DNA of 64,000 nt from Rhodobacterales bacterium (GCA_038323615.1 JBBQHC010000002.1:5015-69014); one strand, 5' to 3'. Positions 3,707-52,897 are shown, numbered from the stretch's first letter. A program made the numbers and translations. Notes: generated from the sequence alone by a model not told the origin.

Positions 3707-4483
3707 TTGGGACAGCTGGACGATGCCTATGCCAACGGCGCATACATTGCGAACGGCGCGGCCTATCCGGGTCTGTGGACCGCACGGGCGGCGGCGTTTC
3801 GGGCTGGCGCATTGGGCCGACTGGATCAGCCATACGGGCCACGGGCACGCGAGCGGTTCGATCTGTTCCTGCCCGACGGTCCGCCGTTGGGGACGGTGGT
3901 GTTCGTGCATGGTGGCTATTGGCTCGAGGGCGACAAATCGCTCTGGTCGCATCTGGCGGCGGGGCCGGTGGCCCAGGGTTGGGCCGTCGCGGTGCCCTCC
4001 TATGATCTGTGTCCGACCGTGCGGATTGCCGACATTACCCGGCAGATCGCACTCGCCATTGCGGTGATCGCCGACCGGATGCCGGGGCCGCTGCGCCTGT
4101 GCGGTCATTCGGCGGGCGGGCATCTGGTGGCGCGGATGGCTTGCGACGATCTGGCACCCGATTGGCGCGACAGGGTGCAGCGGATCGTCCCGATCTCGGC
4201 GCTGTCCGATCTGGCGCCGCTGATGCAGACAGGCATGAACGCAGTGCTGCGCCTTGATCGGGCCGAGGCGCGGGCCGAAAGTCCGCTGTTGCTTGGATGG
4301 TCCGGGGTGCCGGTGACGCTGTGGGTCGGGACGGACGAACGGCCAGCGTTTCTGGACCAGTCACGGCAGTTGTCGGCGCGGTGGCAGGTGCCGGTGGTGG
4401 TCGATCCGGGGCGGCACCATTTCGATGTGATCGAAGGATTGTCGGATCCGCGCAGCCAATTGACGGCGACGCTGTTGGGGTGA
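3707..4483 (+). CDS. alpha/beta hydrolase (esterase/formamidase-like)
   Basis: HGGYW oxyanion motif and GHSAGGH nucleophile elbow. TTG start at 3707. Confidence 0.7.
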   Translation: MGQLDDAYANGAYIANGAAYPGLWTARAAAFRAGALGRLDQPYGPRARERFDLFLPDGPPLGTVVFVHGGYWLEGDKSLWSHLAAGPVAQGWAVAVPSYDLCPTVRIADITRQIALAIAVIADRMPGPLRLCGHSAGGHLVARMACDDLAPDWRDRVQRIVPISALSDLAPLMQTGMNAVLRLDRAEARAESPLLLGWSGVPVTLWVGTDERPAFLDQSRQLSARWQVPVVVDPGRHHFDVIEGLSDPRSQLTATLLG

Positions 4484-4488
4484 GTCTT

Positions 4489-4540
4489 GGGGCGCTGCCC
4501 CAAACCCCGGAATATTTTTAGCCAAAAGAAGCTGGAAGTG
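4489..4540. repeat. mosaic intergenic element, copy 1 (GC hairpin plus AT-rich block)
   Basis: GGGGCGCTGCCCC hairpin followed by CCGGAATATTTTTAGCCAAAAGAAGCTG. The same blocks recur at 11.8, 23.8, 34.9 and 52.8 kb. Confidence 0.75.
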
Positions 4541-4542
4541 GA

Positions 4543-5517
4543 TCAGCCAAAGCGGGATTTCCAGGTGGGGAACGGGTCGCTGTCTGCCGGGGTCGCGAGG
4601 TAAACCGCGCGGGCGATGGCGCGGGCCATGCAGGTGGCGGCCGCATGGCCAAGCAGGACTGCGTCCGTGGCGGCCCGTGCTCTGGTGCTGGCGGCAAAGA
4701 TCAGATCGCCGTCGAGCGGCGTGTGGCTGGGCAGCAGAGCGCGGGCGAAACCGTCGTGGGCGGCGGTGGCGAGGCGGGTGCATTGGCTTTGGGTCAGTGT
4801 CGCGTCGGTGGCGACGATGCCGATGGTGGTGTTGCGGCCGGGGCCGGTTTTGGTCGCGGGCGGGCCTTTGGGGAAGGTGGGGGCGGGGCCAATCCCGCCG
4901 AATTCGCCGCCCTCTTCCCAAGGCGCGGCCCAGAAATGCGCCCCATCGCCCACCGTCGCCGACCCCAGCGCGTTGACCGCGACCAGCGCCCCGACCGTCG
5001 TGCCATCAGGCAAAACGCAAGAAGCCGAGCCGAGGCCGCCCTTGAGCGTGGCGGTGGTTGCCCCGGTTCCGGCGCCGATTGTGCCAAGGGCGAAACCGGC
5101 GGTCGCGGCGGTCAGGGCGGTGCGGCCAAGCGCGTTGTAGGGGTTGGCCACCCAACCTTTGTCCCCGCCGTTCAGCAGATCGAACAGGATCGCCGCCGGG
5201 ACGATCGGCACCCGCACGGGACCGACCGGAAAACCGCGCCCGATCTCGCGCAGCCCGTCCGCGACCCCTGACGCCGCATCAAGGCCAAAGGCCGATCCGC
5301 CAGCCAGCACCAGCGCATCGACCTGTTCGACCAGCCGGTCGGGGGCCAGCAAATCGGTTTCGCGGCTGCCCGGTGCGCCGCCCATGACAAAAACGCCCGC
5401 GGTAAAGGGCGCGTCGGCGACCAGCAAGGTGACCCCGGATTTAAGCCGGGCATCATTGGCATTGCCCACCCGCAGGCCCGCCACATCGGTGATCAGGTTG
5501 CGCTGTCCCGGTCTCAT
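4543..5517 (-). CDS. P1/S58 family peptidase (DmpA-like L-aminopeptidase/D-esterase)
   Basis: MRPGQRNLITDVAGLRVGN..., GGAPGSRETDLL and GRNTTIGIVATDATLT are typical of the DmpA/BapA family. The start is set at ATG 5517 (324 aa) rather than the 485-aa track ORF. Confidence 0.85.
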   Translation of the reverse strand: MRPGQRNLITDVAGLRVGNANDARLKSGVTLLVADAPFTAGVFVMGGAPGSRETDLLAPDRLVEQVDALVLAGGSAFGLDAASGVADGLREIGRGFPVGPVRVPIVPAAILFDLLNGGDKGWVANPYNALGRTALTAATAGFALGTIGAGTGATTATLKGGLGSASCVLPDGTTVGALVAVNALGSATVGDGAHFWAAPWEEGGEFGGIGPAPTFPKGPPATKTGPGRNTTIGIVATDATLTQSQCTRLATAAHDGFARALLPSHTPLDGDLIFAASTRARAATDAVLLGHAAATCMARAIARAVYLATPADSDPFPTWKSRFG

Positions 5518-8400: not shown

Positions 8401-9243
8401 ATGACGCTTTTCATACCAAATCGCCGGGCCTTTCTGGCGCTGGCTGGTTCGGCCACGCTGGGCGCCTGCGCCGGGGCCGCACCCGTGTCCGGGCCGATGT
8501 TGCAGCCCAGGGAACAGTTCCTTGACGGCTACGGGCCAATCTACGATTCCGGCTATGAATTGCCCGGCGTCCCGGCCGAATACCTTGTTCCGCCGAACCG
8601 GCAGATCACCGGGCAATATCTGGGCGAACAGCCGCCCGGCACGCTCGATGTCGATCCCTATGCCAAGTTTCTGTATCTGGTCCGCGAGGGGAACAATTCG
8701 GTGCGCTATCCGGTCGGGGTCGGGCGCGCCGGGCGCAGTTTCCGCGGCGATGGCACGATCCAGTTGAAACGCAAATGGCCAAGCTGGACGCCAACCCGCA
8801 ATATGCTGCGCACCGAGCCTGAAATCTATGGCCCGTTTGCAAGCGGCATTCGGGGCGGCTTGCGCAATCCGCTGGGGTCGCGGGCGCTGTATCTGTTCAA
8901 GGGCGGGCGCGACACATACTACCGGATTCACGGCACCAACGATCTGGGTTCGGTCGGCAATTCCGGGTCGGCCGGCTGTATCCGGATGTTCAATCAGGAC
9001 ATCATCGGGCTGTTCGAACTGATCAATATGGGCATGCGGGTGCATGTGCGCGGCGAAGAAGAATCGCAGCGCGTTGATCCCGAGAATTTCAACCGGGGCG
9101 TTGAATTGCCTGCAAAGCAGATCAATCCGGACGAGATTTACAGCGCCGAAGCGATCGCCAACGATCCGCCGCCGATATTTGACGACCCGCGCGACGGGCA
9201 GACGCCGGGCGAGGCCCTGATTGCATCGGACGTGCCGCTTTAG
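8401..9243 (+). CDS. L,D-transpeptidase lipoprotein (YkuD domain)
   Basis: Tat/lipobox-like N-terminus (NRRAFLALAGSATLGAC) and the YkuD catalytic motif HGTNDLGSVGNSGSAGCIRM. Confidence 0.85.
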   Translation: MTLFIPNRRAFLALAGSATLGACAGAAPVSGPMLQPREQFLDGYGPIYDSGYELPGVPAEYLVPPNRQITGQYLGEQPPGTLDVDPYAKFLYLVREGNNSVRYPVGVGRAGRSFRGDGTIQLKRKWPSWTPTRNMLRTEPEIYGPFASGIRGGLRNPLGSRALYLFKGGRDTYYRIHGTNDLGSVGNSGSAGCIRMFNQDIIGLFELINMGMRVHVRGEEESQRVDPENFNRGVELPAKQINPDEIYSAEAIANDPPPIFDDPRDGQTPGEALIASDVPL

Positions 9244-9446
9244 ACGGATCACGGGTGGTCGGGATTACCGCCCAAATACCAGCAAAGCCGGGGTGCAGTA
9301 CGAAACTGCCTCCGGCTTTGCCCGTTCCGGGGGCGGGCTTTGGCGCCAGCAAAATGGGCTGTCTGCGCCAAAACCGGGTGACGCCCCTTTGTAAATCCGG
9401 CTAACATCCCATAGATCAACAACACGTTATTTCAGCGAGGACCGTC

Positions 9447-10526
9447 ATGGCCGACTTTGACACCCAAATTCGTGAATCCCAGGAACAGGTTGCGCAGGCG
9501 CAATCCAAGATCAGCGATCTGACAAGCCGGATCGAAATTGCCCGCCAAAAGATGGCGCAGGGCACCGATATCGCGGTCGATATCGAGAACGCCTCGCTTG
9601 AGGATGTACACGCGCATACCGAACTGATGAACGCCAACATCGCCGAACTGATCATGGGGCTGGACGATGTGACATCCGGCTTTCAGCAGGATTTCGATGA
9701 GATGCGGTCGAAGACGGGCATGGAGAGCTTCATTGGCTTCTTTTCCAAGGCCAAATCGGATTCGATGCGCGGCGAACGGATGCGCACGGCGTCCGTGGAC
9801 GACAAGTTGCAGGATCTGATCTCGAAATCCAACGTGATCCAGAAACTGCTGGAACAGCAGTTGACCATTCTGAACGAGCAAAAGGTCAAGGTCGAAGGCA
9901 ACCTGACCGAGACGCTGGAAGAGCGCGAGGTCACGGTGGGTGAATTGGAGGCATCGCGGGCCGAGATTTTGGGTATGGACCCCAAAATCATCACCCTCGA
10001 AGGGCAGATTTCGGTTGAACAGGACGCTGCCAAGCGCACCAAACTGGAAACCGAACTGGCGGCGCTGAATACCCAATACAATGCGCTGGTGCAGGACGAG
10101 CAGGTCAAGCTGGCGAAATCGCAGACGCTGGAACGCTATATCGAAAAGGGCAAGACCTGGATCGACTCGTTGCAGAACCAAGCGGCAACCCAGATGGTGC
10201 TGATCAACAAATTGCAGACCGATACCAAACAGCGGGTGGTCTTGTATGACGCCCTGACCAAATCGCTGAAGACCGCCCAGCAGCAGGACGTGGCGCACCG
10301 GATCAACGAGATCGGGGTCAAGACCGACCAGGAGGCGCAGACCGCGATGGCGGCGATCGGGTCGGCGACCAACGCCAAGATGGCCGACATGCTCGAGGCG
10401 CACGAGGACCACATGGTCTTCGCCCGCGAGGTGCTTGAGCAAAAGGCCAAGGCGGACGAACGGTTCATCCGGCGGTTTCAGAAGATCGTCGAGAAGCACG
10501 ACAAGAACCTGTATGGGGCCGAGTAG
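9447..10526 (+). CDS. all-helical coiled-coil protein (possible TelA/PspA-like architecture), first gene of the 8-gene operon
   Basis: 359 aa, with ATG 9447 preceded by GAGGA. Rich in E/Q/K/L/A, no Cys, one Pro, one Trp, and long heptad-like stretches. An FIGFFSKAKSDSMRGERMR linker separates the helical blocks. The family cannot be confirmed without an HMM search. Confidence 0.8.
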   Translation: MADFDTQIRESQEQVAQAQSKISDLTSRIEIARQKMAQGTDIAVDIENASLEDVHAHTELMNANIAELIMGLDDVTSGFQQDFDEMRSKTGMESFIGFFSKAKSDSMRGERMRTASVDDKLQDLISKSNVIQKLLEQQLTILNEQKVKVEGNLTETLEEREVTVGELEASRAEILGMDPKIITLEGQISVEQDAAKRTKLETELAALNTQYNALVQDEQVKLAKSQTLERYIEKGKTWIDSLQNQAATQMVLINKLQTDTKQRVVLYDALTKSLKTAQQQDVAHRINEIGVKTDQEAQTAMAAIGSATNAKMADMLEAHEDHMVFAREVLEQKAKADERFIRRFQKIVEKHDKNLYGAE

Positions 10527-10604
10527 GATGGGCGATTTCGTCCATTGTGACGGCGGGATGGGCAAATTGCCTGTCCTGCGGACCGGACAACCGTCGCGCC
10601 GCTA

Positions 10605-11729
10605 ATGACCGCGCTCGACACTCCCCTCGACCATTTCAAGCTGGAGGACACCCGTGTCACCCGGCGCTATTTCGGCAAGTTCGAAAAGATCACCGGCTAT
10701 CTGGGCAAGGTCGCCGCGGTGATGGAGGCGGAGGGTAGCTATTCCCGCGCCGACATCGCCATTATTGCCCGCTATCTGATCGGGCTGAATCTTACCTTTC
10801 GCGCATTGGCCCACAAATACCATTTCGCCGGCCGGTTCGCCCATGCCGGACAACTGACGTTCGATCGGGTCGAGTCAGGCTTTCCGGTCTTTTCGGAACT
10901 GATGGAAATGGCCAATGACGCGCATCAGGCGGCGCGGCATCTGGAAGCCATGCCGACCCAAGAGGCGCTGAAGGATCAAATGGTGCGCACCATTGTCGGG
11001 GAGCAGTCGATCCCGACGAAATTGCAATACGCGCTGTCGCAGCGGCTGTATTACGAAGAACTGGTCAAGGGCGAATTGTTCTGGGCGCGCAATGACCCGC
11101 AGGCGGTCTGGATCGGCAATGCGCCCGACGGGCGGCGGACCTTTCAGGTGCATTGGGCGGTCTATGACAGTCAGGTCAACCTGCCGGTGATCTACCTGAT
11201 GGACCTCGAAGATAGCGGCCGCATTGGCCTGCCAAAAGACGAGCGCCGCTGGCCCGAGGCGCAGGCGCATCTGATGGCACAATCGCTGGACGGGCTGAAA
11301 CTGCTGACCATCGCAACCGGCTTTGACACCGATTTCGACGACCTGCACCCGGTCCGGCTGCGCCGGTTCCATATCGGCCCGATGTACAGCCACGCCTTTA
11401 CCCGCCAAGACGGCCCGTTGCGCGAGGTGCTGGAGGCGGCGCAGGCCCCGGTGGGCGAAGACTGGGCGCTGGTCTGGACCGAAGAGGATCTGGTGACCGA
11501 CCGGGTGGACACGGTGAAATCGGGCTGGTTCGGGTCGGTTGAACGGCAGATTTTCGCGCTCGACCCGCTGCTGGGGCGCGGCGACATGCTGGGCGCGACC
11601 CGGATGGAGCGGTCGCTGATCATGCCGGAACGGCCGTTTCAGGCCTTGGCTGAGAAAAAGCCGAAGGGGTTCGAGGATGTGCGCAAGTTCGTCGTCAGCC
11701 CCGGCGGTAAGGTGTTGAGTTATCGCTAG
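10605..11729 (+). CDS. hypothetical protein (374 aa), operon gene 2
   Basis: ATG 10605. Host-like third-position GC. Soluble-looking, with no motif I recognise. Confidence 0.75.
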   Translation: MTALDTPLDHFKLEDTRVTRRYFGKFEKITGYLGKVAAVMEAEGSYSRADIAIIARYLIGLNLTFRALAHKYHFAGRFAHAGQLTFDRVESGFPVFSELMEMANDAHQAARHLEAMPTQEALKDQMVRTIVGEQSIPTKLQYALSQRLYYEELVKGELFWARNDPQAVWIGNAPDGRRTFQVHWAVYDSQVNLPVIYLMDLEDSGRIGLPKDERRWPEAQAHLMAQSLDGLKLLTIATGFDTDFDDLHPVRLRRFHIGPMYSHAFTRQDGPLREVLEAAQAPVGEDWALVWTEEDLVTDRVDTVKSGWFGSVERQIFALDPLLGRGDMLGATRMERSLIMPERPFQALAEKKPKGFEDVRKFVVSPGGKVLSYR

Positions 11730-11835
11730 GGGCGACGGGTTGAAACCCGCCGTGACGGGCGCGGATTGCGACGGTCGCGAAGCCGGACAGTGCGGATGCC
11801 TCCGGCGGGAATATTTAAGGCCAAAAGAAGGTGAA
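11730..11835. repeat. mosaic intergenic element, copy 2 (REP-like hairpin plus AT-rich block) inside the operon
   Basis: CGGGTTGAAACCCG hairpin (11736-11749) and GGGAATATTTAAGGCCAAAAGAAGGTG (about 11807-11833). It fills nearly the whole gap between operon genes 2 and 3. Confidence 0.75.
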
Positions 11836-11843
11836 TCAGGACC

Positions 11844-13778
11844 ATGAGCCAGACGAGCGATCAGATGGAACTGCGCGAGGCGGATGTGCGCAAGCACTAT
11901 CCGGCGGCTTTGGCCCTGCTGGAAGGGTTCGATCACAGCCCGCGGATTGCGACGGGCACTGTCGCCGCCCCGGTTGAACGGTCCGATGGGATCGGGACGC
12001 GCCGCGCGTTCCGGTCGACCACACCGGGGCTTGTTGGGCGCAGGGTGGCGCGAACCGAAGGGATTCAACTGCTGACGCGGATTGCCGGGGTCGAAGGTGG
12101 CGAGGGGCTGACCTCGCCGGTGCAGGCCGCGGTGATGCAGGTCTTGCGCCGCGCTGTCGCCATCGCCATGGCCGTGGCCGAACAATACGCCGACCGTACC
12201 GGGTTGACCGACCTCAAGCGCGCCAACCTCGAAGGGGCGCTGCCCACCGCCAAAGGGTCGGAGTTTTCCGAATTGCTGACCGCCGAGGCATTGATCACGC
12301 TTTATGTTTTTGGGTCAGCCACGGCGTTTCTGCTGGCCTCTCACGCCGGGACCGAAACCGTCGAAGTGGGCGAGGTCGAGGAGGTTTTGACCGACAACGG
12401 CCAACTCGCTTTGCACGGCGCGCTGTGGGAGTTGGATCAGGACATCGGCGCACTGGCCGCGTCCGAGCCCAAACTGGTCGCCACCGTGCTGGCATTCGCC
12501 GAGGCGCTGATGGACAAGGTCAGTGCGCGGGCCAGCACCGCCGCCCGGCTGGAACCCTTCAACGCGGCAAGCTGGAAAGTTGAAGCCGACGGGTTCAGCG
12601 TGCGCGGTTTCACCCCCGCCCGGGCCGCCAGATCGACCACGCTAACAATGACCTTCAAGCAACCCAACGAGGTGATCGGCAATCACATCGCTAAATATCA
12701 GGCAATGAAACTGTCCAAGATGATCATGGCCTATGATTTCGACCGGCGCTTGAATCCCTTTGCCGAATTGGGCGGTTTCATTTTCACCTTCATGGGCGAC
12801 GGCGCACCGGGGACCGGCAAGACGACGCTGATTCAGATGATGGCCGGGCTGATCAATGGCTATTGTCAGACGGCGGGCTATCCGTTTCGGTATCAGAACC
12901 TGTCGACCGACAATATCGACAGTTATCAGGGCAAATCGGGGCAGAACGCCAAGGCGTTCATAACGTCTATTATCGACCCCGCCGTGATCGGATTTGGTAC
13001 CATCGACGATATTGACCAACTGGCCGGCAAGCGCGGCGATCGCCAGTCGAGCGCCGGTCAATTGGAAATTACCGCGGTGTTGATGGAAAGTTTCGCCGGG
13101 GCCAATACGGTCGTGCGCGGGAACTGCACGTTCGGGATGTTTTCCAATTATCCCGAAAACGTCGATGACGCCCTGCGCCAGCGGGCCGGGGCGCGGTTTC
13201 TGGTCGACGGGCCGATCACGCGCGACGATTATATCGACATTCTGTATCTGCTGATGGGCAAGAACCACAAGATCCCGGTCGGCGATCATCAGGTCTATGC
13301 CGCGCAGGAGATCAAAAAGGCTGTCGCGGACAGCTTTGAAAGTCATGCAAAGCCGCATGAGGAAGGACTGGAAAAGGTCTATAACCGGGTCAGCAGGGAT
13401 ATTGGCAAGCTGGATACGATTACCAAGCTCGGCACTTATCTGAAGGGTATTCAAGAGGCCGACCCCCGTTTCACCGGTCGCGCGATCAAGAATATCACCG
13501 ACGCGGTCAAGGTGCGGGCGATGGATTTCGAATTGCCGGACGAATGGATGGAAACCCCCGATCTGTTTCTTTTCAGATCCTACGACGAGAAGATGGGCAT
13601 GATCGAGGAACTGCGCCAGCCGATCACCGTCGAGATGGTGATTCAGGAAATCAACCGCTATGCGGATTCCGAATTCCGCTATGCCGATAAATCCGACGAG
13701 GTCGCGATTGCCGATATGGTGCGCGACTATGCCCGGCAGGAAGAGGCGAAGCGGCGCTATCTGGAGGGCAGGGAATGA
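11844..13778 (+). CDS. AAA+ ATPase, classic AAA clade, with unique N- and C-terminal regions
   Basis: 644 aa. Walker A GAPGTGKT (nt 12801-12824), Walker B GTIDDID (nt 12996-13016), and the second region of homology NYPENVDDALRQRAGARF. The ~300-aa N-terminal and ~170-aa C-terminal regions carry no motif I recognise. Confidence 0.9.
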   Translation: MSQTSDQMELREADVRKHYPAALALLEGFDHSPRIATGTVAAPVERSDGIGTRRAFRSTTPGLVGRRVARTEGIQLLTRIAGVEGGEGLTSPVQAAVMQVLRRAVAIAMAVAEQYADRTGLTDLKRANLEGALPTAKGSEFSELLTAEALITLYVFGSATAFLLASHAGTETVEVGEVEEVLTDNGQLALHGALWELDQDIGALAASEPKLVATVLAFAEALMDKVSARASTAARLEPFNAASWKVEADGFSVRGFTPARAARSTTLTMTFKQPNEVIGNHIAKYQAMKLSKMIMAYDFDRRLNPFAELGGFIFTFMGDGAPGTGKTTLIQMMAGLINGYCQTAGYPFRYQNLSTDNIDSYQGKSGQNAKAFITSIIDPAVIGFGTIDDIDQLAGKRGDRQSSAGQLEITAVLMESFAGANTVVRGNCTFGMFSNYPENVDDALRQRAGARFLVDGPITRDDYIDILYLLMGKNHKIPVGDHQVYAAQEIKKAVADSFESHAKPHEEGLEKVYNRVSRDIGKLDTITKLGTYLKGIQEADPRFTGRAIKNITDAVKVRAMDFELPDEWMETPDLFLFRSYDEKMGMIEELRQPITVEMVIQEINRYADSEFRYADKSDEVAIADMVRDYARQEEAKRRYLEGRE

Positions 13779-14128
13779 CCGGCATCACTCAGGCCTTTGC
13801 CGGCGGGCTGATCTTGCCGGCCGTCTGTGTTGCGGCGCTGGGCTGGGTCGTGCCGCGTCTGTTGGCGTTGATATTCCCCGAAGGCGTCACGGCGCTGATG
13901 CTACTGGCCTTGACGGCAACGGTTGTCATGCTGGCGTTTGGGGCCGGGTTTTTCGCGCTGCTTTATGTCTGGCAGGGCGTCCCGTTCGACATGCTGTTCG
14001 AGGGGGGCATCGCGGCGGGTGTGCTGCATTTCGGGCAACTTGGCCTGATTTCAGCCCTGTTATGGGCACCAATCCTGGTGCTGTCGGTGGCGGGTCTGCC
14101 GAAAAACTGGGTGACGATGGTATGGTGA
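13775..14128 (+). CDS. small polytopic membrane protein (117 aa), operon gene 4
   Basis: 3-4 hydrophobic helices. ATG 13775 overlaps the TGA of the ATPase gene (ATGA). Confidence 0.7.
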   Translation: MTGITQAFAGGLILPAVCVAALGWVVPRLLALIFPEGVTALMLLALTATVVMLAFGAGFFALLYVWQGVPFDMLFEGGIAAGVLHFGQLGLISALLWAPILVLSVAGLPKNWVTMVW

Positions 14129-14430
14129 ACTGGTTTCTTGCGATCCTGGTTGTCGGCCCCTGTCTGATCGGGGCCTTTGCCGGTTGGCGCGGCGGCCGGG
14201 TTGAAATGACTGTGCCCGCCGACATCCTGCGCCCGCTTGGCCTGACGCTGCTTGCGGCTCTCGCATGGTCGGCGGTGTTCGTGCTGGGGGTCCACGGTGT
14301 GACCAATGCGGCGCTGGGCGGGGCGTTCACCTGGACCGCGTTCCTGCCGTTTCTGGGGGTCGCCCTGCCGTTCGCGATCCCGTTGACGGTGATCGCCTTT
14401 TTCGTCAGTGCAAGGGCGTATCAGCGATGA
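14122..14430 (+). CDS. small polytopic membrane protein (102 aa), operon gene 5
   Basis: ATG 14122 lies 7 nt inside gene 4. Product MVNWFLAILVVGPCLIGAFAGW... has about three hydrophobic helices. The track ORF 13660..14430 is the same frame with a spurious upstream extension. Confidence 0.65.
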   Translation: MVNWFLAILVVGPCLIGAFAGWRGGRVEMTVPADILRPLGLTLLAALAWSAVFVLGVHGVTNAALGGAFTWTAFLPFLGVALPFAIPLTVIAFFVSARAYQR

Positions 14431-15779
14431 ATCTGCTGATTGAAAAGGGGCTGATGTTCGGCAATCTGATCCGGGTCGATAGCCCGGTATTGGTTGATCG
14501 CTATAACCGGGCGCTGAAACATCTGACCGGCAAAACCACCACGCTGAAAGAGTTTCATATCGACATTTCCGGCTATTCGCCCGAGGTCGGGGATGAATTG
14601 AACGACCATTTGTATCTCAACCACAACGGGGTGAACCGGCAATTCATTCTGCTGACGACAGAACAGACGACGGCGCCGCTGCTGAACGCCAACTTTTCCA
14701 CCTCGCGCGGCATCCTGCGCCAGTTTTATACCGCCAATGCGGCGCAACTGTTCGCCCTGACGGCCCGCGACGCGGTGGCGGGCGAATTGATCAATTCGGT
14801 CTATGTCGCGCCCACCGCCGCCGCCCTGTTCGACATCCGCAAGATCACGGTCGAGGCGGATACCACCGACGGCACCGTCGCGACGGCAGCGAAATTGGGG
14901 GCAATGATCGACCAGTTCAAAACCGAAAAGGACGCGTGGTTTGACGATGTGCTGATCGCGCAGATGATCGGGCTGGCCAAGGAAACCGGCGATCTGACGC
15001 GCAATCCGGTGGCCCTGCAAAAGATGAGCTTTGCGCAGGATAATTTCTGGACCGGCCTGTTCGGCGGCCTCTATCTGTTTCGCGGTGTCACCCATCCGGC
15101 GGCGATTGCCGCGACGGACAAGGCCAAACTTGGCGATCTGCCGATCCCCTATGTCTTTGATTTCAAGGACCGGTCGGCCATTGCCAAATTTCTTGAATTG
15201 AACGGGCTTGCCGAACCCATCGTCAAGGCGCGGGGCATCGATGCCGCTGCGATCCTGCATCAAAAGATGGATTTCGTCGTCGCCGAGGTCGCCAGCAAAC
15301 TGGGCGAGGATATGGCGGGGGCCACCCGGCGCGACCTGCGCAATCTGGGGCGACGTTATGCTGACAAACTGCCCGCCGAATGGCAGGGTCTGGCGGCGCT
15401 GGCCCGCTGGGCCGAGGATGGTGGCGACTGGCCAACGATCACATCCAACCATCCGGCCTATTTCTACACCCTGCGGGCGACGGCCCACCCCGACGCCGAT
15501 CTGGTGAATATGCTACTCGCTGATTTGGCTCCGCTGGACATCCGGCAGTTGTTTATCTGCCATAAAGAGGCGTTTTATGCGGCCTATGCCGGCTGGCCGG
15601 TTGAAAAGCAGGCCTATGTGGCGGACTTTCTGGAGCGCGAATATCAGGTGGACAAGGCCGGGACCCGCGCGGCGCTGTTCGGACACGAGGCGGCGATGGA
15701 AGAACCGGCACCGGTGACCCGGCCAAAGGTTGATATCGTCGATCTGGTAGGGCCCTGGGGCGCGATCAAGAGGAGATAG
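14427..15779 (+). CDS. hypothetical protein (450 aa), operon gene 6
   Basis: ATG 14427 overlaps the preceding TGA (ATGA). Soluble-looking, with no motif I recognise. The track ORF starts upstream at 14265 in the same frame. Confidence 0.75.
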   Translation: MNLLIEKGLMFGNLIRVDSPVLVDRYNRALKHLTGKTTTLKEFHIDISGYSPEVGDELNDHLYLNHNGVNRQFILLTTEQTTAPLLNANFSTSRGILRQFYTANAAQLFALTARDAVAGELINSVYVAPTAAALFDIRKITVEADTTDGTVATAAKLGAMIDQFKTEKDAWFDDVLIAQMIGLAKETGDLTRNPVALQKMSFAQDNFWTGLFGGLYLFRGVTHPAAIAATDKAKLGDLPIPYVFDFKDRSAIAKFLELNGLAEPIVKARGIDAAAILHQKMDFVVAEVASKLGEDMAGATRRDLRNLGRRYADKLPAEWQGLAALARWAEDGGDWPTITSNHPAYFYTLRATAHPDADLVNMLLADLAPLDIRQLFICHKEAFYAAYAGWPVEKQAYVADFLEREYQVDKAGTRAALFGHEAAMEEPAPVTRPKVDIVDLVGPWGAIKRR

Positions 15780-15782
15780 GCA

Positions 15783-16058
15783 ATGGCGTTCATCAAACTT
15801 TTCGTTTTTGGGTTTATCTTTCTCAGCGTGATCTACCTGTCGATTTCGATCTATTCGCGCTCGGTCCGGCGTGAAAAGCTGGAAAAACGCTGGGATGCAA
15901 ATCCGCCCGAGGGGGCCGACGCCGCGGCGCGGGATGCCTATATCGCGGAAGGCATGGCCGTCTATCACCACGGTTTGCGGCGCAAGCTGATTGCGCTGGT
16001 CTATGTCGTGCCGACCCTTATTATCGCGGTGATCCTCTACATCACGAACGCCAACTAA
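15783..16058 (+). CDS. two-TM membrane protein (91 aa), operon gene 7
   Basis: Starts 3 nt after the gene 6 stop. It has N- and C-terminal hydrophobic helices around a charged loop (RSVRREKLEKRWDANPPEG). Confidence 0.7.
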   Translation: MAFIKLFVFGFIFLSVIYLSISIYSRSVRREKLEKRWDANPPEGADAAARDAYIAEGMAVYHHGLRRKLIALVYVVPTLIIAVILYITNAN

Positions 16059-16070
16059 AGGACTGATTCC

Positions 16071-16748
16071 ATGCGCTATGTCAGAATGACGTTTCGGTTG
16101 ATTGTCGTCGTGATCCTGTTCAGCTTTTTCCACTACGTCCTGCCACAGCACGATATTGCCAAGGTGACCGGCACCTCGATCATTCCGACCGATCTGGGGG
16201 GTTTGAACAGCATCTTTTATGCGCAGACTGACAGCGGCAACGCGACCCTGCCAACGCGCAGTTTGCGGCTGATCAACACAACGAAACGGAACACGTTCCT
16301 GCTGGGGTTCATCCCGCGCGATAGCGAAAGCATCATGGTTTATCGCAACGAGGATACCGGCTGGATCTGGCCGCCCTATTTCAAGTTCGACAGTTCTGAT
16401 TTGCAGGCGACGGCAGACGCAAATGTGTCGACTGCGGACAATCCGCGCTGGGTCGTCATCACCCACTACGGCTGGCGCAACCGATTCTTTACGATCTATC
16501 CCAATGCTATCGGCATCCGTCCGGTATCGGGGCCGGATGTGCGGATCATCCCGTGGTTCAACATCTTTTTCTTTATCTTCCTGGCCATCGCTTACGTGTT
16601 TCTGCGGGCGATGTGGGCGCAGTTCCGCGAACGATCGGTCGATCCGCTGCTCGATTCGGCGGGCAACCGGATGGACGAGGTCAGCGCAGGCGTGGCCGAG
16701 CGGCGCAGCCGGATCAGTCGGTGGTTTGATTCGTGGCGGCGCAAATAG
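16071..16748 (+). CDS. DUF1523-like membrane protein (225 aa), operon gene 8
   Basis: N-terminal TM helix, a central domain with VVITHYGWRNRFFTIYPN, a second TM helix (IIPWFNIFFFIFLAIAYVFL) and a basic tail. It matches my recollection of the DUF1523 family. Needs an HMM check. Confidence 0.7.
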   Translation: MRYVRMTFRLIVVVILFSFFHYVLPQHDIAKVTGTSIIPTDLGGLNSIFYAQTDSGNATLPTRSLRLINTTKRNTFLLGFIPRDSESIMVYRNEDTGWIWPPYFKFDSSDLQATADANVSTADNPRWVVITHYGWRNRFFTIYPNAIGIRPVSGPDVRIIPWFNIFFFIFLAIAYVFLRAMWAQFRERSVDPLLDSAGNRMDEVSAGVAERRSRISRWFDSWRRK

Positions 16749-16793
16749 GGGGGAGCTGCCCCCCGGCGGGTTGCGGTCAGAAAAAACCGCGGA

Positions 16794-19133
16794 TCATTCG
16801 CCGTAGGGGATCCAGATATTCTTGACCTCGGTCGCGGCGGTCAGGAACGCATGGCCTTCGCCTGCCGACCCTGACCAATCGCGGGCCTTGGCGTGGTTCA
16901 CCCAGGTCCGTTTCAAATTGCCCGCGCTGCGCTTTTCGATCTCCACCGACAGCGGTGCCGACGAAAACGACCAGACCGCGTCGATGTCCAGATGGCTGGC
17001 AAGGGTCGGGGCCAGATCGGTATGACTGCCGGTCAGGATATTGACGACGCCCGCAGGCACGTCCGAGGTTTCGAGGATTTGCACGAAGTCCGTCGCGGCC
17101 AAGGGGTAGGGGTCCGACGCCACCAGCACGCTGCGGTTGCCCATCGCCATTGCCGGGGCCAAGACGCTGATCAGACCCAGCAGCGGGGCCTCGTCCGGGC
17201 ATAGCACGCCGATGGTGCCGACAGGTTCCTTCATCGCCAGCGCGACACCCCGGATCGGCACGTTATGCACCTGACCGTCGTATTTGTCGGCCCATGCGGC
17301 ATAGGTGAACAGACGGCGGATCGATGCCTCGACCTCTTTCGCGCCGCCCTTGGTCCCGGTCAGATCGTCGATCCGGCGGGCGAATTCGCTGGCGCGGGCC
17401 GACAGGTTTTCGGCCATGTAAAACATGATCTGGGCGCGCAGGTGGCCGGTGGTCTTGCCCCAGCCCTTTGCCGCATTCGCCGCCTCGACCGCGTTCCTGA
17501 CATCCTTGCGGTTGGCCAGTGACGCATGCCCCAGCAGCGCACCCTTGGCCCCGTAAACGGGCCGCGAATAGCCGCCATCGGGGCGCGCCTGTTTGCCGCC
17601 GATGTACAATTTCGCGGTGCGGTCGAGCGGGTCGGCGGGGGCGCCGTCGCCAGCGAACGCGACGATTTCCTTCAGGGGTTTCAGGGCGTCGCGCGGTCGG
17701 GTGTAGGCCTGTAACCCTTCCCAGCCGCCTTCGCGCCCAAAGCCGCTTTCGCGCACCCCGCCAAAGCCCGCAGCCGCGTCGAACATATTGGTCCCGTTGA
17801 TCCAGACCACCCCGGCAGCCAGTTTCGGGGCCACATCCAACGCCAGATTGATGTTTTCCGACCAGAGCGTCGCGGCCAGCCCATAGCGGGTGTTGTTGGC
17901 GATCTCGACCGCTTCGGCCGGGGTGCGGAACGTGGTTGCGGCCAGAACCGGGCCAAAGATTTCCTCTTGCATCAGGGTCGATGCGGGCGCGAGACCGGTG
18001 ATCAGCGTCGGCGGATAGTAGCAGCCCGTGACGGGCAGGGGCGTCGCGGCGACGTAGGTCTGCCCTTCGGTGTTGGCGCCCACCATTGCGGTGATCTGCG
18101 CCAGCTGCACCGGATCGACGATGGCCCCGACGTCGATACATTTGTCCAGCGGATCGCCAATGCGCAGCCCGTCCATCCGGGCCCGCAGTTTGGCATAAAA
18201 CCGGTCGGCGATGCCTTCCTGCACCAGCAGGCGCGACCCGGCGCAGCAGACCTGCCCCTGGTTGAACCAGATCGCATCGACCAGCCCTTCGACAGCGGAA
18301 TCCACGTCCGCGTCATCGAACACGATATAAGGCGATTTGCCGCCCAGTTCGAGGGTCAGGGATATGCCCGACCCCGCCGTCGCCTCGCGAATCCGGCGGC
18401 CCACGGCGGTGGATCCGGTAAAGGCGATCTTGTCCACTTCGGCGTTGACGATCATCTCGCCCACCGCGCCGTCGCCGGTGACGATGTTGACGACGCCCTT
18501 GGGCACCCCGGCCTGACGGCAGATGTCGGCGAATAGCAAGGCTGTAAGCGAGGTATATTCGGCGGGTTTCAGGACCACCGTGTTGCCCATCGCCAAGGCG
18601 GGCGCGATTTTCCATGCCAGCATCAGCAGGGGAAAGTTCCACGGCACGATCTGGCCGCAAACGCCAAGCGGTTCACGGTCGGGCCGTTCGGCGTCCATCA
18701 GTTGCGCCATGCCCGCGTGATAATAGAAATGCCGCTGCGCCAGCGGCACGTCGATATCGCGGCTTTCGCGGATCGGTTTGCCGTTGTCCAGCGTTTCAAG
18801 GACGGCGAACAGGCGCGATTGTTTCTGCATCAGCCGGGCGATGGCATAAAGGACGCGGGCGCGGGCGTGGCCGTCACGCGCCCAATTGACTTGCGCCTTG
18901 CGGGCGGCTTTGACCGCCGCGTCAACGTCGCTTTGCGTCGCCTGCGACACGGCGGCCAGAACCGCGCCGGTCGCGGGGTTCTTGGTATCGAACGTCTGTC
19001 CCGGTTTGGTAAACGCCCCGTCGATGAAATGCCCGAACCGGCCACCGTGACCCGCCAGCCACGCCAGCGCCTCGGCTGCCGATTCCGGGGCCGGGCCATA
19101 GTCCATCGTGTCGAAGATTTCCTTGACGGTCAT
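16794..19133 (-). CDS. aldehyde dehydrogenase with an extra C-terminal partial ALDH-like domain (779 aa)
   Basis: The N-terminal ~490 aa are a complete ALDH (LELGGKSPYIVF, FNQGQVCCAGSR). The C-terminal ~280 aa repeat the ALDH N-terminal/NAD-binding pattern (LYIGGKQARP...ANRKDVRNAVEAANAA) without the catalytic Cys motif. Confidence 0.85.
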   Translation of the reverse strand: MTVKEIFDTMDYGPAPESAAEALAWLAGHGGRFGHFIDGAFTKPGQTFDTKNPATGAVLAAVSQATQSDVDAAVKAARKAQVNWARDGHARARVLYAIARLMQKQSRLFAVLETLDNGKPIRESRDIDVPLAQRHFYYHAGMAQLMDAERPDREPLGVCGQIVPWNFPLLMLAWKIAPALAMGNTVVLKPAEYTSLTALLFADICRQAGVPKGVVNIVTGDGAVGEMIVNAEVDKIAFTGSTAVGRRIREATAGSGISLTLELGGKSPYIVFDDADVDSAVEGLVDAIWFNQGQVCCAGSRLLVQEGIADRFYAKLRARMDGLRIGDPLDKCIDVGAIVDPVQLAQITAMVGANTEGQTYVAATPLPVTGCYYPPTLITGLAPASTLMQEEIFGPVLAATTFRTPAEAVEIANNTRYGLAATLWSENINLALDVAPKLAAGVVWINGTNMFDAAAGFGGVRESGFGREGGWEGLQAYTRPRDALKPLKEIVAFAGDGAPADPLDRTAKLYIGGKQARPDGGYSRPVYGAKGALLGHASLANRKDVRNAVEAANAAKGWGKTTGHLRAQIMFYMAENLSARASEFARRIDDLTGTKGGAKEVEASIRRLFTYAAWADKYDGQVHNVPIRGVALAMKEPVGTIGVLCPDEAPLLGLISVLAPAMAMGNRSVLVASDPYPLAATDFVQILETSDVPAGVVNILTGSHTDLAPTLASHLDIDAVWSFSSAPLSVEIEKRSAGNLKRTWVNHAKARDWSGSAGEGHAFLTAATEVKNIWIPYGE

Positions 19134-23788: not shown

Positions 23789-23908
23789 GTGGACCGTGGG
23801 TTGAAACCCACGGGACCGTTGCCGCTGAGGACAGGAGGGGGCGCTGCCCCCGCCCTGCGGGCCCCCAAGAGCGGGCCCCCCGGAATATTTTTAGCCAAAA
23901 GAAGCTGA
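23789..23908. repeat. mosaic intergenic element, copy 3
   Basis: GGACCGTGGGTTGAAACCCACGGGACC hairpin (23791-23817), GGGGGCGCTGCCCCC hairpin (23837-23851), then CCGGAATATTTTTAGCCAAAAGAAGCTG. Confidence 0.8.
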
Positions 23909-23912
23909 AGGA

Positions 23913-32904: not shown

Positions 32905-32919
32905 CGTCGGTTCCTTTCG

Positions 32920-32989
32920 TGAACACTGTTCATGAATTGCATATAGCAAGTCAGTGAACGTCGTTCAAGATAAAAATGAACGACGTTCA
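32920..32989 (-). promoter_or_regulatory. pspA promoter with three TGAAC-N3-GTTCA operators
   Basis: Palindromes at 32920-32932, 32955-32967 and 32977-32989. On the minus strand, TTGAAC (32968-32963)-N17-TATATG (32945-32940) forms a sigma-70-like promoter. One operator overlaps the -35 and one lies downstream of the -10. Confidence 0.55.
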
Positions 32990-34881: not shown

Positions 34882-34902
34882 GGCAGCGACCTTTTCTTAC
34901 AA

Positions 34903-34964
34903 CTTCTTTTGGCCAAAATTATCCCGGGGGGCGGCCCGGTACAGGACGGGGGGCAGCACCCCCC
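34903..34964. repeat. mosaic intergenic element, copy 4 (reverse orientation)
   Basis: CTTCTTTTGGCCAAAATTATCCCGGGG is the reverse complement of the AT-rich block. It is followed by the GGGGGGCAGCACCCCCC hairpin (34948-34964). Confidence 0.75.
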
Positions 34965-52854: not shown

Positions 52855-52897
52855 CCCCCGTTGCCAGCCGTCCGGCGCATTGCTATGGCCTAACCCC

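What the first reader, a model, noticed from the sequence alone, without database searches (positions are those of the whole stretch)
9447..16748. Eight-gene translationally coupled operon around an AAA+ ATPase, a coiled-coil protein and four small membrane proteins: candidate undescribed membrane-associated machine
Eight co-directional genes sit with almost no spacing. Start/stop overlaps occur at 13775-13778 (ATGA), 14122-14128 (7-nt overlap) and 14427-14430 (ATGA). The last three genes are separated by gaps of 3 and 12 nt, and the only large gap (11730-11843) is filled by a repeat element. The products are a 359-aa all-helical coiled-coil protein, a 374-aa and a 450-aa protein with no motif I recognise, and a 644-aa classic-clade AAA+ ATPase with long unique flanking regions. 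They also include four small membrane proteins of 117, 102, 91 and 225 aa, the last DUF1523-like. No metabolic enzyme, transporter family, nuclease or regulator is present. The logic therefore looks like a mechanical or remodelling assembly: filament or scaffold, ATP-driven unfoldase, and membrane anchors. This is formally analogous to PspA/ESCRT-III plus Vps4 or to TelA-type stress modules. I know of no characterised system with this composition, and a canonical pspA elsewhere in the window (32 kb) argues it is not simply the Psp response.
Basis: partly seen in the sequence, partly recalled or inferred. Interest (0 to 1): 0.85.

Follow-up and report, generated by a model that had tools for sequence, protein, structure and literature searches.

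The report
Conserved uncharacterised AAA ATPase membrane operon
This is a real, tightly packed operon, widely conserved in Proteobacteria, built around an AAA ATPase, a very conserved all-helical protein and two proteins with no recognisable relatives; no library or paper I could search describes it, so its function is still unknown.

Summary
The eight genes, their overlaps and the intergenic repeat are all in the sequence as described.

Comparative genomics splits them into three layers.
- **Core (four genes):** helical G1, G2, the AAA ATPase G3 and DUF6638 (G6). Their order is kept in 58 of 62 well-flanked genome loci. It is also kept in Ensifer/Sinorhizobium, a low-GC Vibrio replicon and metagenomic lineages.
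- **Membrane partner:** DUF1523 (G8) plus the 2-TM G7 here, replaced by DUF2333 in Rhizobiaceae.
- **Cargo:** G4 and G5 sit in a hypervariable slot. Other genomes leave it empty or fill it with Mrr, AbiC-like or exonuclease genes.

No search placed G1, G2 or G6 in a known family: Pfam, NCBIfam, PADLOC, PHROGs, PDB sequence search, Foldseek (G6 confident model, G2 mediocre model) and the literature. G3 is a divergent classic-clade AAA with an invariant Asp-Asp Walker B and a Tyr/Phe-Gln-Gly pore loop. A conserved palindromic operator sits at the G1 promoter.

The best reading is an undescribed, membrane-tethered AAA remodelling module. That mechanism is inferred, not shown. Homology to PspA/ESCRT-III was tested and not found.

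The parts
9389..9417 (+). Candidate promoter and operator. It is an imperfect palindrome TTGTAAATCCGGCTAACAT (family consensus ATGTAA-N7-TTACAT), followed directly by the -10-like CCCATAG, about 30 nt upstream of the G1 start.
   Evidence: It is the only match in the 64-kb window. At the same position, 29 of 67 orthologous loci match with at most 1 mismatch, against 1.6 in shuffles. Twelve of 13 exact matches across all fetched loci lie at this promoter. Function is inferred.
9447..10526 (+). G1: 359-aa acidic, all-helical protein with one Pro and no Cys or TM segment. With G3 it is the best conserved gene of the operon, and it belongs to no named family.
   Evidence: Identity is 64-87% across Rhodobacterales, Kiloniellaceae, Stappiaceae, Inquilinaceae and Maricaulales, 41% in Ensifer and about 40% in the Vibrio replicon. 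No Pfam, PDB or PspA similarity was found.
10605..11729 (+). G2: 374-aa soluble protein with no Pfam family. The model shows an N-terminal helical bundle and a C-terminal beta-rich domain.
   Evidence: 3098 clusters in the protein collection. Conserved motifs are ESGFP, WAxYD and LHPxxLRRxxxGPMYS. AF2 pLDDT is 65.9. No PDB hit by sequence or fold. Not related to G6.
11730..11843 (.). Copy of a dispersed intergenic repeat of about 110 nt, with ends GGGTTGAAACCC and GGAATATTTAAGGCCAAAAGAAG. It fills the G2-G3 gap.
11844..13778 (+). G3: 644-aa divergent classic-clade AAA ATPase. It has a unique N-terminal region of about 300 aa carrying a conserved RRRFRSTTPGL motif, and a unique C-terminal region of about 170 aa.
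   Evidence: PF00004. The profile matches Rpt4, Cdc48, VAT, Vps4, Yme1, katanin and TRIP13 over the AAA core only (profile positions 321-476). Invariant features are GxPGTGKT, the Q-G of the pore loop, Asp-Asp in Walker B, sensor-1 Asn and R447/R451. No other domain was found.
13775..14128 (+). G4: 117-aa protein with 3 TM segments. It is lineage-specific cargo in the variable slot between G3 and G6.
   Evidence: Detected in 13 of 80 loci. Slot analysis.
14122..14430 (+). G5: 102-aa protein with 3 TM segments, seen only in this genome and its nearest relatives. It lies in the same variable slot.
   Evidence: No tblastn hit in 80 loci. Present in L093 and L094.
14427..15779 (+). G6: 450-aa DUF6638 protein, soluble and alpha/beta, with a fold not seen in the PDB.
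   Evidence: PF20343 E=4.7e-235. 551 clusters at 50% identity, with full-length relatives down to 24% identity. AF2 pLDDT 87.7. No Foldseek hit at E<0.1 in PDB or BFVD.
15783..16058 (+). G7: 91-aa protein with 2 TM segments and a basic loop between them. It is in the same frame as G6, separated only by the stop codon and one further codon.
   Evidence: Conserved downstream of G6 in most marine alphaproteobacterial loci. Read through as a 543-aa G6-G7 fusion in L093.
16071..16748 (+). G8: 225-aa DUF1523 protein. Its layout is TM1, a conserved domain of about 130 aa (YRNEDTGW..PPYFKFD..HYGWR..PN), TM2, and a basic C-terminal tail ending W..WR.K.
   Evidence: PF07509 E=6e-60. Alignment. Within 1.5 kb downstream of G6 in 58 of 62 loci.
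16749..16793 (.). Two hairpins, GGGGGGAGCTGCCCCCC and GCGGTCAGAAAAAACCGC, between the operon end and the convergent aldehyde dehydrogenase gene. This is the likely operon boundary.
   Evidence: Read from the sequence. The convergent gene is Aldedh, 16794-19133(-).

Best explanation
**What is shown.** The locus is one operon encoding a conserved, vertically inherited module that no resource I searched describes.
- The core is four cytoplasmic proteins in fixed order: the all-helical G1, G2, the classic-clade AAA ATPase G3, and DUF6638 (G6).
- The core is coupled to a membrane protein that differs by lineage. Here it is DUF1523 (G8) with the small 2-TM G7. In Rhizobiaceae it is DUF2333.
- G4 and G5 are lineage-specific cargo in a hypervariable slot, not part of the machine.
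- The operon has one conserved promoter region carrying a palindromic operator-like site.

**What is inferred.**
- G3 forms a ring and uses its Tyr-Gln-Gly pore loops to remodel or disassemble an assembly built from G1 at the inner face of the cytoplasmic membrane.
- The DUF1523 or DUF2333 protein, with G7, is the membrane receptor.
- G2 and G6 are adaptor, regulatory or enzymatic subunits.
- The invariant Asp-Asp Walker B suggests a slow, gated ATPase.
- The operator suggests conditional expression under a dedicated regulator, possibly responding to envelope stress.
For: **Operon anatomy.** Overlaps and short gaps link the genes. The operon is bounded by a convergent gene.

**Conservation.**
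- 58 of 62 loci with enough flank keep G1-G2-G3-G6 in order, and 58 of 62 have DUF1523 downstream.
- The same core order occurs in Kiloniellaceae, Stappiaceae, Afifella, Inquilinaceae and Maricaulales.
- It also occurs in Ensifer/Sinorhizobium with DUF2333, on a Vibrio replicon and in metagenomic lineages.
- At least 596 species-representative genomes encode a DUF6638 relative.

**Purifying selection.** G1 is 73% and G3 66% identical to Denitrobaculum, against 46-47% for G2 and G6.

**AAA features.** G3 matches PF00004 and aligns to Rpt4, Cdc48 and Vps4 through Walker A, pore loop, Walker B, sensor 1 and the Arg residues.

**Membrane link.**
- TM predictions for G7 and G8.
- The partner swaps between DUF1523 and DUF2333.
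- R. leguminosarum keeps only G1-like + DUF2333 at the syntenic site.
- One scaffold has a G6-G7 read-through fusion.
- Stand-alone DUF2333 genes lie next to ECF sigma/anti-sigma pairs.

**Regulation.** The palindrome is found at this promoter in 29 of 67 loci, against 1.6 expected.
Against: - No experiment, and no homologue of known function, exists for G1, G2, G6, G7 or G8. The roles of scaffold, adaptor and anchor are assignments by analogy.
- I could not model G1, so its oligomeric or membrane-binding nature is untested.
- The Vibrio replicon has no membrane partner next to the core; mfd follows.
- Two Roseovarius loci and one metagenomic contig carry DUF6638 without the other genes.
- Walker B lacks the catalytic Glu, so G3 may not be a processive unfoldase.
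- The ECF-sigma context applies to stand-alone DUF2333 genes, not to this operon.
Confidence: 0.4

Rival explanations
1. It is a protein quality-control or extraction system. G3 is an unfoldase acting on damaged or mislocalised membrane proteins, in the manner of FtsH, Msp1 or Cdc48. G1, G2 and G6 are substrate adaptors rather than substrates, and DUF1523/DUF2333 recruits the ATPase to the membrane.
For: G3's closest structural relatives by sequence are Rpt, Cdc48, VAT and Yme1 unfoldases, and it has an aromatic pore loop. Membrane partners are conserved. The -10-like CC(C/T)ATAT resembles heat-shock-type -10 elements (the consensus is from my own knowledge).
Against: The -35 position is mostly ATG, not the TTG that RpoH-type promoters need. 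The -10 fits the alphaproteobacterial sigma-70 CTATAT equally well (own knowledge). There is no protease domain. This reading does not explain why G1 is as strongly conserved as the ATPase, or why a G1-like + DUF2333 pair persists without the ATPase.
Confidence: 0.2
2. It is an anti-phage or conflict system. An AAA ATPase works with uncharacterised sensor and effector proteins, and the Mrr, AbiC and nuclease genes in the slot are exchangeable effectors.
For: The slot between G3 and G6 carries Mrr_N+Mrr_cat (L047, L058), putAbiC (L072, L073), an RNase_T exonuclease (L008), and an endonuclease plus IS in S. meliloti Ak57. There are weak PADLOC hits: TRIP13 for G3 (E=8e-5) and NsnC for G1 (E=0.024).
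Against: The slot is empty in Kiloniellaceae, Stappiaceae, Ensifer and Vibrio while the core is intact. The core is syntenic and under strong purifying selection across orders, and many Rhodobacterales share the same flanking ALDH gene. That pattern is unlike the patchy, fast-evolving distribution of defence systems. There is no significant PADLOC or PHROG match and no phage copy. No nuclease, NADase or protease domain occurs in the core.
Confidence: 0.1
3. It is an enzyme-plus-activase module. G2 and/or G6 are enzymes of novel fold, with invariant Asp, Ser, His and Arg motifs. G3 is their dedicated AAA activase or maturase, as CbbX is for Rubisco. The membrane proteins belong to a separate, merely adjacent function.
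For: G6 and G2 have compact, invariant polar motifs: HIDxSGYSPE, GD.R.NP and FGGVYVF in G6, and ESGFP and D..F..LHP..LRR..GPMYS in G2. G6 is a confidently modelled globular alpha/beta protein. The Vibrio version lacks an adjacent membrane protein.
Against: No fold or sequence similarity to any enzyme was found. G1 is left unexplained. DUF1523 or DUF2333 adjacency is kept in nearly all other lineages. There is a G6-G7 fusion.
Confidence: 0.12
4. G1 is a highly divergent member of the PspA/IM30/ESCRT-III superfamily and G3 is its Vps4-like disassemblase. The operon would then be a second, cryptic Psp-type membrane-repair system.
For: The overall logic fits: a helical protein, a classic-clade AAA (Vps4 is among the PDB matches) and membrane anchors. 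A minimal G1-like plus membrane-protein pair recalls LiaH/LiaI (own knowledge).
Against: hhalign of the G1 profile against the window's own PspA gives probability 0.2%. None of 18 G1 orthologues hits PF04012, PF03357 or PF05816 at E<=1. G1 is about 140 aa longer than PspA. G3 has no MIT domain.
Confidence: 0.06

Closest known systems
ESCRT-III / Vps4 and PspA(IM30) membrane-remodelling systems
   Same: They pair an all-helical protein with a classic-clade AAA ATPase, and action is at or near a membrane. Small membrane partners occur, as with LiaI/LiaH or PspB/C (own knowledge).
   Different: G1 has no detectable sequence or profile similarity to PspA or Snf7 and is 359 aa rather than about 220. 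G3 lacks an MIT domain and has Asp-Asp in Walker B. Two further large proteins, G2 and DUF6638, have no counterpart. A canonical pspA exists elsewhere in the window.
Classic-clade AAA unfoldases (proteasomal Rpt/PAN, Cdc48/VAT, FtsH/Yme1, Vps4, katanin)
   Same: G3 matches PF00004. It shares Walker A, the position of pore loop 1 with an aromatic residue and Gly, the sensor-1 Asn, and Arg residues in the second region of homology.
   Different: Matches are weak (best E=4e-8) and cover only the AAA core. The N- and C-terminal regions are unique. The Walker B catalytic Glu is replaced by an invariant Asp. The pore loop is Tyr/Phe-Gln-Gly instead of aromatic-hydrophobic-Gly. No AAA lid, protease or N-domain family was detected.
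TelA / KlaA-type toxic-anion resistance helical proteins
   Same: They are all-helical cytoplasmic proteins of about 360-400 aa found in stress-related operons (own knowledge).
   Different: No G1 orthologue hits PF05816. The single TelA hit, at E=0.26, was to one G2 orthologue and is noise.
CBASS-associated TRIP13/HORMA remodelling pairs
   Same: G3's best PADLOC match is TRIP13 (E=8e-5), and TRIP13/Pch2 is among the PDB matches. In those systems an AAA remodels a partner protein.
   Different: Foldseek found no HORMA-like fold for G6, and none for the mediocre G2 model. There is no cyclase or effector. Inheritance is vertical and syntenic.

Membership tests
Classic-clade AAA ATPases (PF00004) | Pfam AAA domain above the gathering score | tested here: met
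   43.9 bits against a cut-off of 21.2, E=3.9e-11. All 18 orthologues match.
Classic-clade AAA ATPases (PF00004) | Walker A GxxGxGK[ST] | tested here: met
   GAPGTGKT in the window protein. G320, P322, G323, T324, G325 and K326 are invariant in 18 sequences.
Classic-clade AAA ATPases (PF00004) | Walker B hhhhDE with a catalytic Glu | tested here: not met
   The motif is TIDDID. D388 and D389 are invariant, including in the most distant member L082. It aligns to the MDEID of Rpt4.
Classic-clade AAA ATPases (PF00004) | Second region of homology with sensor-1 Asn and Arg fingers | tested here: met
   FSNYPENVDDALRQRAGARF aligns to [22 protein letters not shown]. N435, R447 and R451 are invariant.
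Classic-clade AAA ATPases (PF00004) | Pore loop 1 aromatic-hydrophobic-Gly | tested here: inconclusive
   S-Y-Q-G-K-S (F-Q-G in L082) aligns to the K-Y-I-G-E-S of Rpt4. The aromatic residue and Gly are kept, but the middle residue is an invariant Gln.
PspA/IM30 - ESCRT-III superfamily (for G1) | Sequence or profile similarity to PF04012 / PF03357 | tested here: not met
   No hit at E<=1 in 18 orthologues. hhalign against the window's PspA gives probability 0.2%.
PspA/IM30 - ESCRT-III superfamily (for G1) | ESCRT-III fold (alpha1-alpha2 hairpin plus alpha3-5) and polymer formation | not testable with these tools
   The structure-prediction quota went on G6 and G2, and no G1 orthologues came from the search for homologous proteins, so G1 was not modelled. 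Polymerisation needs experiment.
ESCRT-III/Vps4 system (for G3) | N-terminal MIT domain on the ATPase | tested here: not met
   No Pfam family other than AAA-type P-loop models at E<=0.5 in 18 orthologues.
TelA (PF05816) | Pfam TelA match in G1 | tested here: not met
   No hit in any G1 orthologue.
Known anti-phage defence systems (PADLOC-DB 2.0) | Significant match of the component proteins to a defence-system model set | tested here: not met
   Only weak single hits: TRIP13 8e-5, REase_II 0.004, NsnC 0.024. G2, G4, G5, G6 and G7 have none.
DUF6638 (PF20343) | Full-length Pfam match | tested here: met
   E=4.7e-235, residues 10-449 against profile positions 1-439 of 439.
DUF1523 (PF07509) | Full-length Pfam match | tested here: met
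   E=6.2e-60, residues 1-186 against profile positions 1-176 of 176.

The most novel reading that the evidence does not exclude
A previously unrecognised, ancient membrane-maintenance or remodelling machine of Proteobacteria. A polymer or coat built from the G1 family is assembled on DUF1523/DUF2333 membrane receptors. A dedicated classic-clade AAA ring with an Asp-Asp Walker B recycles it, assisted by two proteins of novel fold. This would work like ESCRT-III/Vps4 or PspA systems but be evolutionarily unrelated to them.
Probability: 0.25. Interest if true: 0.85.

Novelty: categorically new. Interest (0 to 1): 0.7.

Why it matters
- **Scale.** The module is not a strain oddity. DUF6638 and G2 each form about 3000 clusters at 90% identity. 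Relatives occur in at least 596 species-representative genomes, across abundant marine Rhodobacterales, rhizobia and a Vibrio replicon.
- **No known relatives.** Three of its four core proteins have no relative of known function or fold. The helical G1 and the ATPase G3 are its most strongly conserved parts.
- **What a function would give.** It would annotate thousands of genes at once and might reveal a new AAA-driven cell-envelope process.
- **Testability.** The work defines a minimal core, separates it from hitch-hiking cargo, names the likely membrane partners and pinpoints an operator. The question can be tested in organisms I know to be genetically tractable (S. meliloti, R. leguminosarum, Ruegeria, Roseibium).

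Tried and rejected
1. **PspA/ESCRT-III or TelA homology of G1.** Rejected at sequence-profile level.
2. **G2 and G6 as distant paralogues.** I suspected this from their similar ID..SG[YF].P motifs. hhalign gave probability 0.3%.
3. **Fold assignment.** The G6 model is confident (pLDDT 87.7) but has no Foldseek hit at E<0.1 in PDB or BFVD. The G2 model is mediocre (pLDDT 65.9) and has no hit. PDB profile searches with G1, G2, G6, DUF1523 and DUF2333 found nothing.
4. **Phage or plasmid origin.** There is no phage copy and no significant PHROG match for the non-AAA proteins. The plasmid hits are chromosomes, chromids or megareplicons.
5. **RpoH (sigma-32) heat-shock promoter.** The -10-like CC(C/T)ATAT is conserved. 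But the -35 position is mostly ATG, whereas TTG is critical. The -10 also fits the alphaproteobacterial housekeeping consensus (own knowledge). Left open, not claimed.
6. **Identity of the factor binding ATGTAA-N7-TTACAT.** No literature match and no second site in the window.
7. **Rfam.** No RNA family between 8000 and 18000.
8. **S. meliloti locus tags guessed from memory (SMc02731-36).** One unrelated mention, and I could not map it to the operon. Dropped.
9. **Literature.** Searches for DUF6638, DUF1523, DUF2333 and their PF numbers found only incidental mentions.
10. **First attempt to scan genomes with a 20-sequence distant alignment.** It failed for lack of a conserved stretch and was repeated with 9 sequences.

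Full report
**1. What is in the sequence**

Six co-directional ORFs appear in the mechanical ORF list. Two more, G5 (14122-14430) and G6 (14427-15779), are internal starts inside the longer listed ORFs 13660-14430 and 14265-15779.

| Gene | Coordinates | Length | Note |
|---|---|---|---|
| G1 | 9447-10526 | 359 aa | all-helical |
| G2 | 10605-11729 | 374 aa | no Pfam family |
| G3 | 11844-13778 | 644 aa | AAA |
| G4 | 13775-14128 | 117 aa | 3 TM-like segments |
| G5 | 14122-14430 | 102 aa | 3 TM-like segments |
| G6 | 14427-15779 | 450 aa | DUF6638 |
| G7 | 15783-16058 | 91 aa | 2 TM-like segments |
| G8 | 16071-16748 | 225 aa | DUF1523, 2 TM-like segments |

- I read the junctions from the DNA. 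They are ATGA at 13775-13778, a 7-nt overlap at 14122-14128, ATGA at 14427-14430, then gaps of 3 and 12 nt.
- All eight ORFs have third-position GC of 0.73-0.80, so G4 and G5 look like real genes.
- Hydropathy finds no TM-like segment in G1, G2 or G6. G1 has one proline in 359 residues.
- Upstream lies a YkuD L,D-transpeptidase gene (8401-9243, +). Downstream lies a convergent aldehyde dehydrogenase gene (16794-19133, -), separated by two hairpins.
- The G2-G3 gap holds a member of a dispersed repeat family with at least four other copies in the window.

**2. What the proteins are**

- Pfam recognises only AAA in G3 (E=3.9e-11), DUF6638 in G6 (E=4.7e-235, full length) and DUF1523 in G8 (E=6e-60).
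- NCBIfam, PADLOC and PHROGs add nothing significant.
- G1, G2 and G6 have no relative among PDB sequences, even with profiles.
- The G6 model, built on a 51-sequence alignment reaching 22% identity, is confident (pLDDT 87.7, pTM 0.83). It has no Foldseek match better than E=0.19 in the PDB or 0.27 in BFVD, with TM-scores around 0.1.
- The G2 model is mediocre (pLDDT 65.9). It shows an N-terminal helical bundle and a C-terminal beta domain, and also has no match.
- G2 and G6 are not detectably related to each other.

**3. The ATPase**

- A profile of 18 G3 orthologues matches only classic-clade AAA proteins in the PDB. These include Rpt4 (4e-8), Cdc48, VAT, Vps4, Yme1, katanin, AFG2, PEX6 and TRIP13. 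The match covers only the AAA core, profile positions 321-476.
- The orthologue alignment shows these conserved features:
  - An invariant GxPGTGKT Walker A.
  - A pore-loop-1 equivalent S-Y/F-Q-G with invariant Gln-Gly.
  - A sensor-1 Asn.
  - Invariant R447 and R451 in the second region of homology.
  - An invariant Asp-Asp where classic AAA proteins have Asp-Glu in Walker B.
- The N-terminal region of about 300 residues carries a conserved basic RRRFRSTTPGL motif. Neither it nor the C-terminal region of about 170 residues matches any family.
- G3 is therefore a divergent branch of the classic clade. Its chemistry suggests slow or gated hydrolysis; that is inference.

**4. Conservation and the real unit**

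*Abundance.*
- G6 and G2 each have about 3000 clusters at 90% identity.
- DUF6638 has 551 clusters at 50% identity.

*Gene order.* I ran tblastn of the eight products against the 80 fetched loci.
- 58 of the 62 loci with enough flank keep G1-G2-G3-G6 in order.
- 58 of 62 have DUF1523 within 1.5 kb downstream.
- Besides many Rhodobacterales genera, the loci include Denitrobaculum, Afifella, Roseibium/Labrenzia, Inquilinaceae, Litorimonas and Robiginitomaculum.

*Wider distribution.* The same four-gene core occurs in:
- Ensifer and Sinorhizobium.
- Replicons of about 0.9 Mb and low GC, labelled as plasmids of several Vibrio species.
- Metagenomic lineages with 37-49% GC.

*Conservation by gene.* Percent identity to the window proteins, by tblastn:

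| Compared with | G1 | G2 | G3 | G6 | G7 | G8 |
|---|---|---|---|---|---|---|
| Denitrobaculum (L001) | 73 | 47 | 66 | 46 | 42 | 37 |
| Ensifer (L081) | 41 | 28 | 51 | 30 | not found | DUF2333 instead |

G1 and G3 are the constrained parts.

**5. The membrane partner varies but is nearly always there**

- Marine alphaproteobacteria have DUF1523, usually with G7.
- Rhizobiaceae have DUF2333 directly after DUF6638.
- A low-GC lineage has DUF2333 directly before G1.
- R. leguminosarum pSK03 keeps only a divergent G1-like gene (25% identity) plus DUF2333 at the syntenic site (choXWV-tdk ... fhs). It has lost G2, G3 and DUF6638 there. This ties G1 to the membrane protein.
- In a TARA scaffold closely related to the window, the G6 stop codon TAG is GAG. 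G6 and G7 share a frame, so the product there is a 543-aa DUF6638-G7 fusion. This is a single metagenomic observation and could be an error.
- Stand-alone DUF2333 genes in Skermanella and a Rhodobacteraceae plasmid lie next to ECF sigma/anti-sigma pairs. That is a weak hint of an envelope-stress connection.
- By the positive-inside rule, G8 should place its conserved domain of about 130 aa outside the membrane and its basic W..WR.K tail in the cytoplasm (inference).

Exceptions:
- The Vibrio core is followed by mfd.
- Two Roseovarius loci have DUF6638 alone.
- One contig has DUF6638 beside a dynamin-like GTPase and no G1, G2 or AAA.

**6. G4 and G5 are cargo**

- The G3-G6 junction is 0-56 nt in Kiloniellaceae, Stappiaceae, Afifella, Inquilinaceae, Ensifer and Vibrio.
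- In Rhodobacterales and Litorimonas it ranges from 0 to about 1800 nt, with changing contents:
  - Small proteins with 3-4 TM segments.
  - Mrr_N+Mrr_cat endonucleases (L047, L058).
  - putAbiC proteins (L072, L073).
  - An RNase_T exonuclease (L008).
  - Unassignable ORFs.
  - An endonuclease plus ISRm16 in S. meliloti Ak57.
- G4 was found in 13 of the 80 loci and G5 in none. Both occur in the two nearest relatives, and one of those has a further 209-aa gene in the slot.
- The eight-gene machine is thus really four core genes, two membrane genes and two hitch-hikers.

**7. Regulation**

- About 55-60 nt upstream of the G1 start, Rhodobacterales share the palindrome ATGTAA-N7-TTACAT. It is followed within a few nucleotides by CC(C/T)ATAT.
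- 29 of 67 loci match with at most one mismatch, against 1.6 in shuffles.
- 12 of 13 exact matches across the roughly 1.6 Mb of fetched loci lie at this promoter.
- The window copy (9389-9407, two mismatches) is the only match in 64 kb.
- Roseibium has an N6 variant.
- The palindrome would lie between the -35 and -10 positions, as for a repressor or a MerR-type activator (inference).
- I considered a sigma-32 promoter but do not claim it. The -35 is mostly ATG, while TTG is critical for RpoH-type recognition (PMC3441632).

**8. Comparison with known systems**

- The ESCRT-III/Vps4 or PspA analogy is reasonable as a working model. It shares a helical protein, a classic AAA and membrane anchors.
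- The membership tests fail. There is no PspA, Snf7 or TelA signal in 18 G1 orthologues, hhalign probability against the window's PspA is 0.2%, and G3 has no MIT domain.
- Defence-system membership is not supported either. PADLOC hits are weak, there is no phage copy, inheritance is vertical and syntenic, and the slot is empty in most lineages outside Rhodobacterales.
- The literature held here has nothing on DUF6638 and only incidental mentions of DUF1523 and DUF2333.

**9. Verdict**

- The interpretation "undescribed membrane-associated AAA machine" is partly supported. It is undescribed, conserved and linked to the membrane, but it is a 4+2 gene unit carrying two cargo genes, and the mechanism is unproven.
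- I rate the existence of a coherent conserved system at about 0.9. I rate the specific model at about 0.3-0.4: a G1 assembly remodelled by G3 at a DUF1523/DUF2333 receptor.
- It lies outside every system I could test it against.

Noticed in passing
window 9389-9417; same position in L027, L039-L041, L043, L047, L048, L059, L060, L071, L072, L078 and others: A conserved palindrome ATGTAA-N7-TTACAT followed by CC(C/T)ATAT lies just upstream of G1 in many Rhodobacterales, with an N6 variant in Roseibium. It looks like the operator of an unidentified regulator specific to this operon.
   Followed up: partly
between G3 and G6: window 13775-14430; L047 9074-10000; L058 9089-9997; L072 9186-10004; L073 9105-10004; L008 9126-10004; L085 10079-11824: There is a hypervariable cargo slot inside an otherwise rigid operon. 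It is empty in many lineages. Elsewhere it holds small TM proteins, Mrr endonucleases, putAbiC proteins, an RNase_T exonuclease, or an endonuclease plus an IS.
   Followed up: partly
L083 5184-8812: In one low-GC metagenomic lineage the AAA gene is interrupted at the P-loop by an insert of about 500 aa with a weak Intein_splicing match. The related contig L086 has an intact gene.
   Followed up: partly
L093 10767-12398 (compare window 15777-15785): The G6 stop codon TAG is GAG in a closely related TARA scaffold. This gives an in-frame DUF6638-G7 fusion of 543 aa. G6 and G7 share a reading frame in the window too.
   Followed up: yes
L090 7794-10148 (R. leguminosarum pSK03): The syntenic locus holds only a divergent G1-like gene plus DUF2333, without G2, the AAA or DUF6638. 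This suggests a minimal two-gene module.
   Followed up: partly
L091 2821-6804; L092 4256-6747: Stand-alone DUF2333 genes lie beside ECF sigma factor / anti-sigma factor pairs in two unrelated alphaproteobacterial plasmids.
   Followed up: no
L087 8001-11173: A 487-aa DUF6638 protein occurs without G1, G2 or the AAA. It lies next to a Dynamin_N GTPase and near DUF2201 and a HlyD-like protein.
   Followed up: no
window 11730-11843, 4420-4545, 23790-23915, 34890-35015, 52745-52870: A dispersed intergenic repeat family of about 110 nt has the form GGGTTGAAACCC ... GGGGGCGCTGCCCCC ... CCGGAATATTTTTGGCCAAAAGAAG. The copy upstream of G3 supplies the sequence just before its start codon.
   Followed up: partly
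L084 (CP099927.1) and related records: The Vibrio homologues lie on records of about 0.88-0.94 Mb labelled as plasmids. The sampled 20 kb has 36.6% GC. Nearly identical proteins are filed under V. parahaemolyticus, V. vulnificus, V. cholerae, V. fluvialis and V. metschnikovii. The nature of this replicon was not checked.
   Followed up: no
window 11844-13778, residues about 50-70 of G3: A conserved basic motif G-T-R-R-R-F-R-S-T-T-P-G-L sits in an otherwise variable N-terminal stretch of the ATPase that looks like a linker. G1 ends in a conserved K-H-D-x-N-x-Y-G tail. Either could be a docking or recognition element.
   Followed up: no
window 32224-32949 (-): A canonical PspA/IM30 gene (PF04012, E=2.8e-13) lies 15 kb downstream of the operon, next to a TetR-like ORF. 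It is unrelated in sequence to G1.
   Followed up: yes
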